Of a stretch of 64,000 bases of DNA, positions 34,832 to 37,800 are shown piece by piece. This stretch comes from Candidatus Sumerlaeota bacterium (GTDB taxonomy: Bacteria > Sumerlaeota > Sumerlaeia > UBA8349). Within the stretch, counting starts at the first letter, position 1, and each line of letters begins with the position of its first letter. The stretch lies in assembly GCA_016931035.1 (NCBI GenBank), contig JAFGFN010000181.1:3664-67663 (forward strand). Reading direction: 5' to 3'. The notes beneath the pieces were generated by a model. That model saw only the letters and a program-made list of their open reading frames with translations, searched no databases and had not been told where the DNA came from. The translations under genes were made by a program, and so were the position numbers.

Positions 34832-37800
34832 ATGACAGATCCGATTCTCGACCGGTTCTTATCCGATTGCGAGGACCCGCGCATTTTCGCGCGCAACAAG
34901 CAACCGGCTCGGGCGAACGCGATCCCCTACTCCGACGAGGCCGAAGCTCTGCGCGGCGGGTCGGAATCGCCTTGGGTGCGCCCGCTCGACGGGCGCTGGC
35001 GGTTCCGATACTCGCCCAACCTCGACGCGGCCCCCGAGGGGTTCGAGGCCGAGGGGTTCGACGCCGTTTCGTGGGACACGATCGACGTGCCGGGCAATTG
35101 GGAAATGCAGGGGCACGGGATGCCGATCTATCGCAGCTCGCGCTACGCCTTCCCCTACCGGGATTTCCCGAAGCTCCCGCGCGAGGACAATCCGGTCGGG
35201 CGTTATCGGACAACGTTCCAGGTGCCCGAAACCTGGACGGGTCGGCGGGTGTTTCTGCATTTCGGCGGCGTGTCGGCGGGTTTCCATCTCTGGGTCAACG
35301 GCGAGCCGGTCGGCTACAGCGAGGACTCGTTCGGCCCTTCCGAGTTCGACGTGACGCCGTTCCTTCGCGCGGGCGAGAACTCGCTGGCGGTGCGGGTCTA
35401 TCGTTGGTGCAGCGGCTCGTGGCTCGAAGATCAAGACCAGTGGCGGCTCAGCGGGATCTTCCGGTCCGTGTATTTGTTTTCGGTTCCGGATTTGTGGATT
35501 CGGGACTTTTTTGTCCGGCCCGAAGTCGACGCGGATGGACTGAGTGGACTGAATGGACGGAGTGGACAGTTGAGAGTCTCCGTCGAGATCGAAGCGTTCA
35601 TCCGGCCCGAGACCAACGACTACGCCGTCGAACTCGCGTTCTACGACGCCGAAGGGCGACGGGTCTTCAACGAGCCGGTGCGCGAGAGCCTGGCCGCGCC
35701 GACCAAGAAAGATCCGGCGGCGATCCGACGCTATCTGAATATCGAGGTGCCGGTTGACGCGCCGCGCCTCTGGTCCGCCGAGACGCCGTATCTCTATGCG
35801 GCGGTGTTGACCTTGCGCGGACCCGACGGAACGGCCTTGCACGCCGTGCGGAGCCGGGTCGGGTTCCGCTACGTCGAGATTCGAGACGGGCAGTTCCTGG
35901 TCAACGGCCGCGCGGTGCTTCTGAAGGGGGTCAACCGTCACGAACACGACGACCGTCGAGGGAAGGCGATCACGGAAGAGTCGATGCTCGAGGACATCCG
36001 CCTCATCAAGCGGTTCAACTTCAACGCCGTGCGCAATTCGCACTACCCCAACCGGCCGCGCTGGTACGAGCTGTGCGACGAGTACGGTCTCTATGTGATC
36101 GACGAGGCCAACATCGAGGCGCACGGAACCGAGCTGATCGAGGACCGTCCGGCGAACCTGCCCGAATGGACCGGCGCGATTCTGGACCGCGGCGCGCGGA
36201 TGGTCGAGTGCGACAAGAACCACGCGTGCATCGTGATCTGGTCGCTCGGAAACGAGTCGTCGAGCGGCCCCAACTTCGCCGCGCTCGCCGGTTGGATTCG
36301 TCAGCGCGACCCGTCGCGTCCGATCCATTACGAACGGGCGAAGCCGCTGGCGCGCGGCGACGGCGAGCCGGCCTTCCTCGATGCGATGGCGAACGAAGGG
36401 GTCCGCAACGGGTCGGCGCGCGCAAAAGGTGGCACGGGCGTCCCGCCCGTGGTCTTCGCGGCGCAATGCGCCGCGCATCGTGGGCAAGATGCCCATGCCA
36501 CTTCAAGACATGGGCAAGATGCCCATGCCACCGTGAGACACGAGCGAGACGCTCATGCCACTCCCCCCGACGCGCCGTACGTCGATTTCGTCAGCCGGAT
36601 GTATCCGCCGCCCGACGCGATCGTCCGGCTCGCCGAAACCGAGCCGACCGACCGTCCCGTCCTGATGTGCGAGTACGCGCACTCGATGGGCAATTCGACC
36701 GGGAACCTCAAGGAGTATTGGGACGCCATTCGTTCGCACCGCCGTCCGATCGGCGGGTTCATCTGGGACTGGGTGGACCAGGGCATTCGGCGTCGCGCGG
36801 ACGACGGCACGGAGTACTGGGCGTATGGCGGCGATTTCGGCGAACCCGTTCACGACGGCGCCCTGTGTCTCAACGGACTCGTTTTTCCGGACCGCACCGC
36901 CCACCCCGGCGCCCTCGAACACAAGAAGGTGGCGCAGCCCGTCCGAGTCGAGGCGGTCGATCTCGCCGCGGCGACCGTCCGGGTGTGGAACGACTACGAC
37001 TTTGTCGATCTCAGCCATCTGACGATCCATTGGTCGCTCGAAGCCGACGGAGAGACCCTCCAGTCCGGCGATCTCGCCCCGCTCTCGACGCCGCCTCACG
37101 AGTCCGAGACGCTCGCCCTGCCCTTGACGAAGCCCGATCTTCACGGAGGAGCGGAGTGCTTCCTGCGGATCGGATTCCGGCTCGCCGCCGACACGCTTTG
37201 GGCCGAGAAAGGGTACGAGGTCGCCTTCGAGCAATTCAAGATGCCCTACGCGGTTCCCGCGCCGCCCGCGATTCACGTCGGCGACATGCCGCGTCTCGAA
37301 GTGGAGGAGAATGAAGGGCGCATCTCGGTGCGGGGCGAACGGTGCGAGATCGAATTCGACAAGACCGCCGGGCTTCTGGCGTCGATGCGGCTCGACGGCG
37401 CGCTTCTCATCGCGCGCGGTCCCCGGCTCAACGTTTGGCGCGCGCCGACCGACAACGACGGCACGGTCAAACGCGGGATGGCGAAACTCTGGTACGCCGC
37501 CGGGCTCGACCGGCTGACGCACGAGACGCTCGAGGTCGTCTGCCGCCGAGTGTCCGAAAGCGTTGTGTGCGTCCGAATCCGCTCTCTTCTCACTTGTCCA
37601 CCCGGTCCACTCAGTCCACCTAGTCCACTCTCTTCCCCCCTCTTCGAATGCGTCTACGACTATCGCGTCTTCGGCCCGGGCGACGTCGAGATCGAAACCG
37701 ATGTCGTCCCGGCGCGCGACCTGCCGCTTCTGCCCCGGCTCGGACTTCAGATGCAACTGCCCGGGACGTTCGACCGATTCACGTGGCTGGGGCGCGGGCC

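What the first reader, a model, noticed from the sequence alone, without database searches (positions are those of the whole stretch)
36431..36568. In-frame, translated palindromic tandem-repeat element inserted into the GH2 beta-galactosidase gene (RPE-like)
A ~140-nt block made of a leader hairpin plus three 30-nt units, each an 8+3+8 palindrome followed by the 11-nt constant acctcaaga-type tail, interrupts a surface loop of a LacZ-like enzyme without breaking the frame. It adds GTGVPPVVF plus three [10 protein letters not shown]-like decapeptides. A closely related element sits in the GH78 gene 3 kb downstream in the same translation phase. In-frame insertion of mobile palindromic elements into ORFs is a hallmark of Rickettsia palindromic elements and is rare elsewhere. 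The units have identical 'spacers', so this is not a CRISPR array.
Basis: seen in the sequence. Interest (0 to 1): 0.75.

Follow-up and report, generated by a model that had tools for sequence, protein, structure and literature searches.

The report
In-frame REP repeat cluster inside genes
The block is a cluster of REP elements, short hairpin DNA repeats thought to be spread by a RAYT transposase, that sits in frame in two sugar-degrading enzyme genes; in-frame copies of what appears to be the same repeat family were published in 2013, so it is a clean but fairly ordinary case.

Summary
Window 36429-36561 holds one hairpin unit in forward orientation (GTGG-CACGGGCG-TCC-CGCCCGTG) followed by three 23-nt units in reverse orientation (CATGGGCAAGATGCCCATG-CCAC) at a 30-nt period, in frame in an intact GH2 gene. 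A sister cluster lies at 39518-39671 in the GH78 gene, in the same phase.

The units are REPs of the GTAG superfamily with a GTGG head. Di Nocera et al. 2013 described the Opitutus terrae GTAG-19 family, whose in-frame copies encode the same peptides ([23 protein letters not shown]) in about 35 genes, including a GH2.

The same 23-mer occurs in more than 120 genome stretches from MAGs of about ten phyla. In a Sumerlaeota MAG, a RAYT gene (NCBIfam REP_Tyr_transpos) is flanked on both sides by this REP. Of 80 RAYT relatives from metagenomes, 78 have GT[AG]G-headed hairpins close by.

The stems are kept by compensatory changes. All aligned homologs lack the segment, and AlphaFold2 predicts a disordered loop.

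Verdict: a new member of a known kind, most likely a tolerated passenger insertion. "RPE-like" holds only as an analogy, and "rare elsewhere" is wrong for this family.

The parts
34832..38248 (+). Host gene 1: GH2 beta-galactosidase-like ORF (1138 aa), intact across the element
   Evidence: 100% identical to an NCBI Candidatus Sumerlaeota protein with GH2 Pfam domains. The NES and [10 protein letters not shown] motifs are invariant in the alignment.
36429..36451 (+).
   Evidence: The peptide is identical to O. terrae GTAG-19 intragenic REPs.
36452..36478 (+). Linker holding an unrelated perfect 9+1+9 palindrome CGCGGCGCA-a-TGCGCCGCG (36457-36475)
   Evidence: (I2).
36479..36501 (+). Reverse REP unit 1, CGTGGGCAAGATGCCCATG-CCAC (one G.T in the stem); translated RGQDAHAT
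36509..36531 (+). Reverse REP unit 2, CATGGGCAAGATGCCCATG-CCAC (perfect); translated HGQDAHAT; preceded by the 7-nt linker TTCAAGA
36539..36561 (+). Reverse REP unit 3, CACGAGCGAGACGCTCATG-CCAC (stem changed on both sides relative to unit 2, one mismatch); translated HERDAHAT; preceded by the linker CGTGAGA
38641..42012 (+). Host gene 2: GH78 alpha-L-rhamnosidase-like ORF (the NCBI model starts at 38713, 1099 aa)
39518..39552 (+). Sister element, forward part: truncated head GTGGCACGGGCG followed by a full forward REP GTGGCGCGGGCGTCCCGCCCGTG
39559..39671 (+). Sister element, reverse part: one degenerate unit (39559-39584) and three reverse REPs (39589-39611, 39619-39641, 39649-39671) at a 30-nt period with CTCAAGA linkers

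Best explanation
The block is a cluster of REP elements (repetitive extragenic palindromes) of the GTAG superfamily, in the GTGG-head variant. They appear to be the same repeats as the Opitutus terrae GTAG-19 family. The cluster has a tail-to-tail dimer layout, one forward unit facing reverse units, and the reverse unit is amplified into a 30-nt tandem array.

Shown here:
- the sequence family;
- the hairpin kept by compensatory changes;
- RAYT genes flanked by this REP in related genomes;
- absence of the segment from homologous enzymes;
- an intact reading frame;
- a loop predicted to be disordered.

Inferred:
- A RAYT (a Y1/HUH single-strand DNA transposase) encoded elsewhere in this genome recognised the hairpin plus GT[AG]G head on single-stranded DNA, placed a REP dimer into the two genes, and added further units. 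This follows the cleavage and rejoining shown in vitro for E. coli TnpA-REP and its rolling-circle-like amplification model (PMC3333891).
- The insertions survived for three reasons. The 19-nt palindromic core with the CCAC tail of each unit carries no stop codon in any frame. The 30-nt period keeps the frame at any copy number. The sites tolerate extra residues: the LacZ 488-496 loop in GH2, and an accessory N-terminal domain in GH78 that some homologs lack.
- The encoded GTGVPPV and HG(Q/R)DAHAT peptides are by-products of the DNA palindrome, not selected protein motifs.
- The most likely effect on the cell is neutral to slightly harmful. A strongly folding RNA segment inside the mRNA is a possible side effect.
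For: - Anatomy: a GT[AG]G head followed by an 8+3+8 palindrome.
- Literature: PMC3733652 Additional file 3 lists O. terrae GTAG-19 intragenic REPs encoding [30 protein letters not shown] and TGGTPVP, including in GH2, GH20, GH28 and GH31 genes. The paper also reports GTAG-19 tail-to-tail dimers with 1-2 bp gaps and GTGG heads in O. terrae.
- Distribution: more than 120 genome stretches carry the exact degenerate 23-mer. In 58 of 132 hits a GT[AG]GCA-headed partner lies within 45 nt upstream.
- Transposase: L099 (a Sumerlaeota MAG) has a 269-aa ORF scoring 91.5 bits on NCBIfam NF047646 REP_Tyr_transpos (cutoff 80) and matching Pfam Y1_Tnp. The same dimers flank it on both sides.
- RAYT relatives: 78 of 80 from metagenomes have GT[AG]G-headed palindromes within about 250-350 nt. 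The closer relatives carry GTGGCAYGGGC.../...GCCCATGCCAC.
- Stem: 97.7% of cells paired, and 5 of 8 pairs show changes on both sides.
- Fold: -84.6 kcal/mol, z = -6.5.
- Array layout: 30 nt is the modal same-orientation spacing outside the window as well, including L132 just upstream of a RAYT gene.
- Homologs: 19 GH2 and 13 full-length GH78 homologs lack the segment.
- Structure: the PDB alignment splits exactly around it, and AlphaFold2 gives pLDDT 23-38 for residues 502-580.
- In-frame copies in other real genes: L116, L097, L119, L005, L101, and proteins P0252 and P0255 with the same 'GxGVxPV + HGQDAxxxxx repeats' layout.
Against: - No RAYT gene lies in the 64-kb window, and the rest of the source genome could not be read. 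The link to a RAYT therefore rests on other genomes.
- Only two clusters of this family occur in the window, and both are intragenic. REPs are normally extragenic.
- The nearest homologs are only about 56% identical, so no exact empty site or insertion boundary is available. No target-site duplication is visible.
- RAYT-driven REP movement has never been shown in vivo (PMC3333891 says so). Replication slippage could equally have made the tandem array.
- About 29 extra residues upstream of the REP block in GH2 are unexplained.
Confidence: 0.85

Rival explanations
1. The repeats are kept for an RNA- or DNA-level function inside the gene. They could act as a strong mRNA structure that pauses ribosomes, blocks exonucleases, serves as an RNase target or attenuates transcription. 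This would make the element an exapted regulatory module rather than a passenger.
For: The fold is very stable (-84.6 kcal/mol, z = -6.5). The hairpins are maintained by compensatory changes. PMC3733652 argues that many REPs are transcribed and act as RNA elements. Two neighbouring genes of one CAZyme cluster carry the element in the same orientation.
Against: Stem maintenance is equally expected if the hairpin is only what the transposase recognises. Copies occur in both orientations and in all frames in unrelated genes. No Rfam family matches. Nothing ties the element to a position with regulatory logic.
Confidence: 0.1
2. The decapeptide repeats are a selected protein feature, for example a histidine-rich metal-binding or flexible loop, and the DNA palindromy is secondary.
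For: The HG(Q/R)DAHAT repeats are rich in His and Asp. The GH2 insertion lies about 10 residues before the LacZ Tyr503 equivalent (plus my own knowledge of LacZ numbering). Both clusters use the same phase.
Against: The same DNA is found outside long open frames in most copies (104 of 132 hits) and is translated in all six phases elsewhere. Stem changes are compensatory at the nucleotide level while they alter the peptide: Q/R, G/E, H/R. The segment is predicted disordered. All aligned homologs lack it.
Confidence: 0.03
3. It is an artefact or dead DNA. Either the arrays come from misassembly or collapse in a metagenome-assembled genome, or the two genes are pseudogenes that happen to stay open.
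For: The source is a MAG. Tandem repeats are prone to copy-number error. The GH78 insertion removed a conserved GW...FDD motif.
Against: Two independent clusters share the same architecture. The whole array is about 90 nt, shorter than a typical read. The same layouts occur in many independent assemblies, including contigs of megabase size. Both ORFs stay open for more than 1,100 codons with catalytic motifs conserved.
Confidence: 0.03
4. It is a Rickettsia-type palindromic element (RPE) or an unrelated new class of in-frame mobile palindrome.
For: It behaves like one: a palindromic insert of about 140 nt, in frame, in an enzyme loop.
Against: The unit has the GT[AG]G head and the RAYT association of GTAG REPs. 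It matches a published REP family through its translated peptides. PMC3733652 assigns RPE-4/-6 to CGTC REPs.
Confidence: 0.01

Closest known systems
Opitutus terrae GTAG-19 REP family (Di Nocera, De Gregorio & Rocco 2013, BMC Genomics 14:522, PMC3733652)
   Same: A GT[AG]G/GTGG head followed by an 8-bp stem and a 3-nt loop. Tail-to-tail dimers with very short gaps. In-frame intragenic copies encoding [15 protein letters not shown] and HGQDARAT in many enzymes, including glycoside hydrolases.
   Different: The host phylum differs (Sumerlaeota, not Verrucomicrobiota). Here the reverse unit is amplified to 3-4 direct copies at a 30-nt period, giving about 45-50 REP-encoded residues, whereas most O. 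terrae entries are single units or dimers of 7-30 residues. Identity with GTAG-19 is inferred from the peptides and from Opitutus MAG loci (L020, L025), not from the O. terrae genome itself.
REP/BIME-RAYT (REPtron) systems of E. coli and Pseudomonas; REPINs (PMC3333891, PMC3479197, PMC3116915, PMC5581495)
   Same: Short GTAG-headed hairpins. Inverted doublets. A Y1/HUH transposase gene flanked by its own REPs (L099 and 78 of 80 metagenome loci). Published models for tandem amplification.
   Different: The classical systems are almost wholly extragenic and have been described mainly within proteobacterial lineages. This REP sequence is shared nearly unchanged by MAGs assigned to about ten phyla. 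Direct tandem arrays of one orientation are not the typical alternating BIME layout.
Rickettsia palindromic elements (RPE)
   Same: Palindromic repeats inserted in frame in protein-coding genes and read through as extra loops.
   Different: The sequence family is different. RPE-1 is a single long palindrome of about 100-150 bp, and RPE-4/-6 are CGTC-type according to PMC3733652. No RAYT-type transposase has been tied to RPEs (my own knowledge).
CRISPR arrays
   Same: Direct repeats of about 23-30 nt with internal dyad symmetry.
   Different: The 'spacers' are 7 nt and nearly identical. There are only 3-4 units. The array lies inside an ORF. No cas genes turned up in the partial Pfam annotation of neighbouring ORFs, though that was not a cas search.

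Membership tests
REP, GTAG superfamily (RAYT-associated) | A 20-40 nt imperfect palindrome with a conserved GT[AG]G tetranucleotide at one end | tested here: met
   GTGG + CACGGGCG-TCC-CGCCCGTG at 36429-36451. The reverse units end in CCAC.
REP, GTAG superfamily (RAYT-associated) | The stem is conserved as a structure (compensatory changes), not only as a sequence | tested here: met
   Alignment A4: 97.7% of cells paired, 5 of 8 pairs changed on both sides, and 0 of 500 shuffles reach the covariation score. Caveat: the rows were hand-picked from partner units, and a few non-family rows were dropped.
REP, GTAG superfamily (RAYT-associated) | Many dispersed copies in the same genome, mostly extragenic | tested here: inconclusive
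   Only 64 kb of the source genome is available, with two clusters (8-9 units), both intragenic. In other genomes the family is dispersed over many contigs, and 104 of 132 hits are outside long open frames.
REP, GTAG superfamily (RAYT-associated) | A RAYT (REP-associated tyrosine transposase) gene flanked by the same REPs (REPtron) | tested here: met
   Met in relatives: L099 RAYT (NF047646, 91.5 bits against a cutoff of 80) flanked by the same dimers, and 78 of 80 metagenome RAYT loci. Not met in the window itself, which holds no RAYT.
REP, GTAG superfamily (RAYT-associated) | The RAYT binds and cleaves the single-stranded REP | not testable with these tools
   This needs biochemistry. It has been shown only for E. 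coli TnpA-REP (PMC3333891).
O. terrae GTAG-19 family specifically | The same unit sequence | tested here: met
   The published REP-encoded peptides GTGVPPV and [16 protein letters not shown] equal the translations here ([23 protein letters not shown]). Opitutus MAG loci L020 and L025 carry the exact DNA motif. No direct DNA comparison with strain PB90-1 was made.
REPIN (Bertels & Rainey) | Two REPs in inverted orientation, a short distance apart, able to form one long hairpin | tested here: met
   The forward unit at 36429 pairs with a reverse unit in the predicted fold. Tail-to-tail gaps of 3 or 6 nt dominate in other loci. In the window the gap is longer (27 nt), and extra direct units are attached.
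Rickettsia palindromic elements (RPE) | Membership of an RPE sequence family (CGTC-type head for RPE-4/-6; a long single palindrome for RPE-1) | tested here: not met
   The head is GTGG/CCAC, not CGTC. The unit is 23 nt. The element is associated with RAYT (PMC3733652).
CRISPR array | Repeats separated by unique spacers of about 26-72 nt | tested here: not met
   The spacers are 7 nt and nearly identical.
MITE | Terminal inverted repeats plus a target-site duplication | tested here: inconclusive
   The outer GTGGCA...TGCCAC ends are inverted. No duplication is visible at either cluster. The exact boundaries are unknown because no close empty site exists.

The most novel reading that the evidence does not exclude
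REPIN-RAYT systems are described as inherited vertically within lineages. Here one RAYT clade and an almost unchanged 23-nt REP are shared by MAGs assigned to Planctomycetota, Verrucomicrobiota (including Kiritimatiellia and Lentisphaeria), Sumerlaeota, Hydrogenedentota, Acidobacteriota, Armatimonadota and others. This could mean that the system moves between phyla. Its frame-neutral arrays (24-, 27- and 30-nt periods) could then be a recurrent source of copy-number-variable loops in enzymes. The evidence does not exclude this. It also does not exclude mis-binned contigs, or very old vertical descent under strong transposase-hairpin co-constraint.
Probability: 0.15. Interest if true: 0.55.

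Novelty: new member of a known kind. Interest (0 to 1): 0.28.

Why it matters
The finding changes little about what is known. It adds Sumerlaeota to the hosts of a published REP family. It also gives a tidy example of how a stop-free hairpin repeat with a period divisible by three can lengthen enzyme loops without breaking the gene.

It has practical value for annotation. Peptides such as [22 protein letters not shown] and MGKMPMP in PVC-group, Sumerlaeota and similar proteins mark REP DNA, not protein motifs. Such blocks can distort homology searches, domain calls and structure predictions.

The wide cross-phylum spread of one REP/RAYT pair is the only part that might repay a dedicated study.

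Tried and rejected
- Rfam search of the element and of eight related loci found no family. The only hits were chance microRNA-like hairpin matches and a sub-threshold Acido-Lenti-1 hit elsewhere.
- Full-text search for the DNA words returned only unrelated primer-type matches.
- A strict regex for the RAYT C-terminal motif found nothing. A looser regex, together with tblastn using an E. coli YafM sequence written from memory, found L099.
- The word-indexed protein search with the 47-aa repeat peptide returned 'no candidate'. It did not even retrieve the window's own protein, so this null result is uninformative.
- The exhaustive phmmer search gave only 16 hits, about half of them unrelated low-complexity repeats.
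- The look-up of encoding contigs had no record for P0001.
- tblastn with the L099 RAYT found no RAYT in the window.
- CRISPR was considered and rejected because the spacers are 7 nt. Intein, intron and intervening-sequence readings were rejected because the block is too small, has no matching features, and is read through in frame.
- I first placed the GH2 insertion right after the active-site Tyr503. That was wrong: the HYE motif is LacZ Y486-E487, and Tyr503 is the later 'PMY' tyrosine (plus my own knowledge of LacZ numbering).
- Spacings in multiples of three looked enriched: 31 of 41 same-orientation pairs and 89 of 128 tail-to-tail gaps. The effect is mostly carried by two or three dominant layouts, and my 'coding' proxy is unreliable next to RAYT genes, so I make no claim from it.
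Full report
**1. Observation**

- Tandem Repeats Finder reports a period-30 array at 36481-36561 (2.7 copies, 82% matches). It reports a second array at 39584-39671 (2.9 copies, 94%).
- The 23-nt unit CATGGGCAAGATGCCCATGCCAC matches four times in the window, at 36479, 36509, 39589 and 39619, all on the + strand. Shuffles give 0.00 expected matches.
- The 'leader' GGCACGGGCGTCCCGCCCGTG matches at 36431 and 39532, and in reverse complement over the 39589 and 39619 units. 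Shuffles give 0.01 expected.
- The 8+3+8 palindromes are confirmed.
- ORF 34832..38248 reads straight through as [47 protein letters not shown] 38641..42012 reads the sister element in the same phase as [51 protein letters not shown].

**2. Anatomy**

On the + strand the GH2 block has these parts:
- GTGG-CACGGGCG-TCC-CGCCCGTG (36429-36451);
- a 27-nt linker holding an unrelated perfect palindrome;
- three units of the form hairpin-CCAC (36479-36501, 36509-36531, 36539-36561), separated by 7-nt linkers.

The reverse complement of a 'unit' is GTGG-CATGGGCA-TCT-TGCCCATG. The leader and the units are therefore the same kind of element in opposite orientation: a GT[AG]G head followed by an 8-bp stem and a 3-nt loop. 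The block is a tail-to-tail pair whose right-hand member is amplified in tandem.

The stems differ between copies by changes on both sides:
- CATGGGCA/TGCCCATG
- CATGGGCG/CGCCCATG
- CATGAGCG/CGCTCATG
- CACGGGCG/CGCCCGTG

The whole block folds strongly: RNA on the + strand gives -84.6 kcal/mol (z = -6.5), and DNA on the - strand gives z = -4.9.

**3. Source and host genes**

The GH2 protein is 100% identical to an NCBI protein of a Candidatus Sumerlaeota MAG, on a contig of 70,780 nt. The neighbourhood is a pectin/rhamnogalacturonan-type CAZyme cluster. It holds GH106, GH2, GH78, GH127, a second GH106-like gene, a pectinesterase and two DUF6785/DUF6784 proteins.

*GH2.* The nearest homologs are about 56% identical. 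All 19 that I aligned lack the segment between HYE(G) and DAPYVD. Against solved structures the alignment breaks into query residues 1-97 and 174-249, while the chain runs on with only a 4-residue loop in 6s6z. In E. coli LacZ the first block ends at chain residue 488. By my own knowledge of LacZ numbering, this places the insertion in the 488-496 loop between VQYE487 and DIICPMY503. AlphaFold2 on the 20-sequence alignment gives pLDDT 23-38 for residues 502-580, with confident domains elsewhere. The catalytic-motif columns ([13 protein letters not shown]) are invariant.

*GH78.* Thirteen full-length homologs lack the segment. Here the element replaces about 13 conserved residues (GW....FDDxxW) of an N-terminal accessory domain. 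Four shorter homologs lack that domain altogether.

**4. What the repeat is**

All were MAGs. They were assigned to:
- Planctomycetota;
- Verrucomicrobiota, including Opitutus, Akkermansia, Kiritimatiellia and Lentisphaerae;
- Sumerlaeota, Hydrogenedentota, Acidobacteriota and Armatimonadota;
- Ignavibacteria, Zixibacteria and Thermodesulfobacteriota.

The commonest layout is GTGGCAYGGGC...GCCCRTG, a gap of 3 or 6 nt, then CATGGGC...GCCCATGCCAC. This pair is often nested in longer inverted flanks that differ by lineage. In 58 of 132 hits a GT[AG]GCA-headed partner lies within 45 nt upstream. These partners were not selected for dyad symmetry, yet 97.7% of stem cells pair and 5 of 8 pairs show compensatory changes. 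Rfam has no family for the element.

**5. Literature**

Di Nocera, De Gregorio and Rocco (2013, PMC3733652) sorted REPs into GTAG and CGTC superfamilies. They made several relevant points:
- O. terrae GTAG-19 tail-to-tail dimers are separated by 1-2 bp.
- The head is mutated to GTGG in many O. terrae elements.

Their Additional file 3 lists the REP-encoded residues. GTAG-19 gives [44 protein letters not shown] and MGGTPMPR. These occur in about 35 ORFs, among them GH2 (Oter_1283), GH20, GH28, GH31, uvrA, dnaE2 and HrpA. GTGVPPV is exactly the translation of the window's forward unit. HGQDAHAT and HGRDAHAT are the translations of its reverse units.

In-frame REPs of what appears to be this family are therefore already published. 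The same paper files the short Rickettsia elements RPE-4 and RPE-6 under CGTC REPs.

**6. Transposase link**

The window has no RAYT. Locus L099, from a Sumerlaeota MAG, has a 269-aa ORF with HUH (MPNHVHVV) and Tyr (YTYYNPERAG) motifs. It scores 91.5 bits on NCBIfam NF047646 'REP-associated tyrosine transposase' (cutoff 80) and matches Pfam Y1_Tnp. It is flanked upstream by GTGGCACGGGCGTCTCGCCCGTG-taagac-CATGGGCAAGATGCCCATGCCAC and downstream by a slightly truncated copy of the same dimer.

A metagenome scan with this protein returned 80 loci at 48-100% identity. In 78 of them, GT[AG]G-headed palindromes lie within about 250-350 nt of the gene, usually on both sides. The closer relatives carry the GTGGCAYGGGC family. 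A more distant group carries GTAGCGCCGGCGTCCCGCCGGCT. This is the REPtron arrangement that defines RAYT-associated REPs (PMC3333891).

**7. Tandem arrays and in-frame copies elsewhere**

Among same-orientation neighbours outside the window, 30 nt is the commonest spacing and 24 nt the next. One such array lies just upstream of a RAYT gene (L132).

Twenty-eight of the 132 genome hits lie in frames open for at least 100 codons on each side. Pfam confirms real genes for several of them:
- a polysaccharide-synthesis protein, with the REP inside the domain (L116);
- a squalene-hopene cyclase (L097);
- FGAM synthase (L119);
- a pectate lyase (L005);
- a radical-SAM protein (L101).

An exhaustive phmmer search found proteins with HGQDARAT decapeptide arrays. 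One of them, P0255, has a forward unit followed by tandem reverse units, the same architecture as here.

**8. Mechanism**

*Shown:* family membership, structural conservation, RAYT association in relatives, absence from homologs, an intact frame, and a disordered prediction.

*Inferred:* a RAYT acting on single-stranded hairpins placed a dimer in each gene, and the right-hand unit was amplified. The amplification could have come from the rolling-circle-like unit addition proposed for TnpA-REP (PMC3333891) or from replication slippage. Selection then kept only stop-free copies with a net length divisible by three, at tolerant sites. In these particular copies, three of the six frames are open. 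Sharing one phase between the two clusters therefore has roughly a one-in-three chance and is not evidence of selection on the peptide.

**9. Verdict**

This is a real feature and a correct observation. 'RPE-like' is right as an analogy but wrong as a family assignment. The element belongs to a known REP/RAYT family, and intragenic in-frame copies of that family have been published.

New here are the host phylum, the 3-4-unit in-frame array, and the breadth of the family across MAGs of many phyla.

Weak points:
- Only 64 kb of the genome was available.
- There is no close empty site.
- All comparison genomes are MAGs, so some phylum assignments may reflect binning errors.

Noticed in passing
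window 15301-15323 (-) and 59117-59139 (-), with about 100 nt of shared flanks (15300-15400, 59116-59215): A second repeat family with a canonical GTAG head: GTAGGTGAGCCCTTCAGGCTCAC, two identical copies (0 expected). On the + strand each is followed by TAAAGG-CCAGGGCAACGCCCTGG and later by AGCCCTGTAGGGGCGTTCTA. Both appear to be intergenic. It looks like a second REP/REPIN-type family in the same genome.
   Followed up: partly
window 38455-38486 (-): A sub-threshold match to Rfam Acido-Lenti-1 (28.4 bits against a gathering score of 37, E = 0.0011 for the 3.7 kb searched), in the spacer between the GH2 and GH78 genes.
   Followed up: no
L099 4992-5878 (Sumerlaeota MAG CAZVVA010000049.1); L121 is an identical metagenome copy: A complete REPtron: a RAYT gene with the REP dimer upstream, and a second dimer inside the 3' end of the open frame. 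As a result the predicted protein tail reads ...[16 protein letters not shown]....
   Followed up: yes
L101 about 5355-5530 (Planctomycetota MAG), upstream part of a radical-SAM ORF: An array of at least seven REP units of mixed orientation inside one long open frame. The same-orientation spacings are 24, 27, 30, 24 and 48 nt, all multiples of three.
   Followed up: partly
loci L001-L200 as a whole: Spacings between REP units favour multiples of three: 31 of 41 same-orientation pairs, and 89 of 128 tail-to-tail gaps, mostly 3 or 6 nt. This may only reflect two or three dominant layouts. It was not tested against coding status.
   Followed up: partly
L004, L024, L043, L084, L086 (Kiritimatiellia and Lentisphaerae MAGs); also L003, L019, L032, L057: The conserved REP dimer sits at the centre of longer, lineage-specific inverted repeats (for example gaggctcttaaaaaccc...ggggttttacaagagcctc). 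The repeated unit in those genomes is therefore a larger hairpin built around the same core.
   Followed up: no
window 39500-39680 (GH78 residues about 287-345): The REP cluster does not simply extend a loop. It replaces the conserved GW....FDDxxW stretch of an accessory N-terminal domain that four shorter homologs lack, so that domain may be damaged.
   Followed up: partly
window 36341-36428 (GH2 residues about 503-532): About 29 further extra residues ([29 protein letters not shown]) lie directly upstream of the REP block. Most of this stretch has no counterpart in the aligned homologs, and it shows no recognisable repeat. Its origin is unknown.
   Followed up: no
window 57080-57112 and 57264-57295: Two heptamer runs (TTAGGCT x4.7 and GCCTACA x4.6, roughly reverse complements of each other) bracket the gap after the 54046-57090 ORF.
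   Followed up: no
P0247 (491 aa, from the representative search): A RAYT-like protein (IMPNHVHILVE, WQADYYNH motifs). Its predicted N- and C-terminal parts are translated tandem repeats of another hairpin family (GGDAVATSR/GCGDGVSPSR). This is another case of gene calls running through the REPs that flank a RAYT.
   Followed up: no
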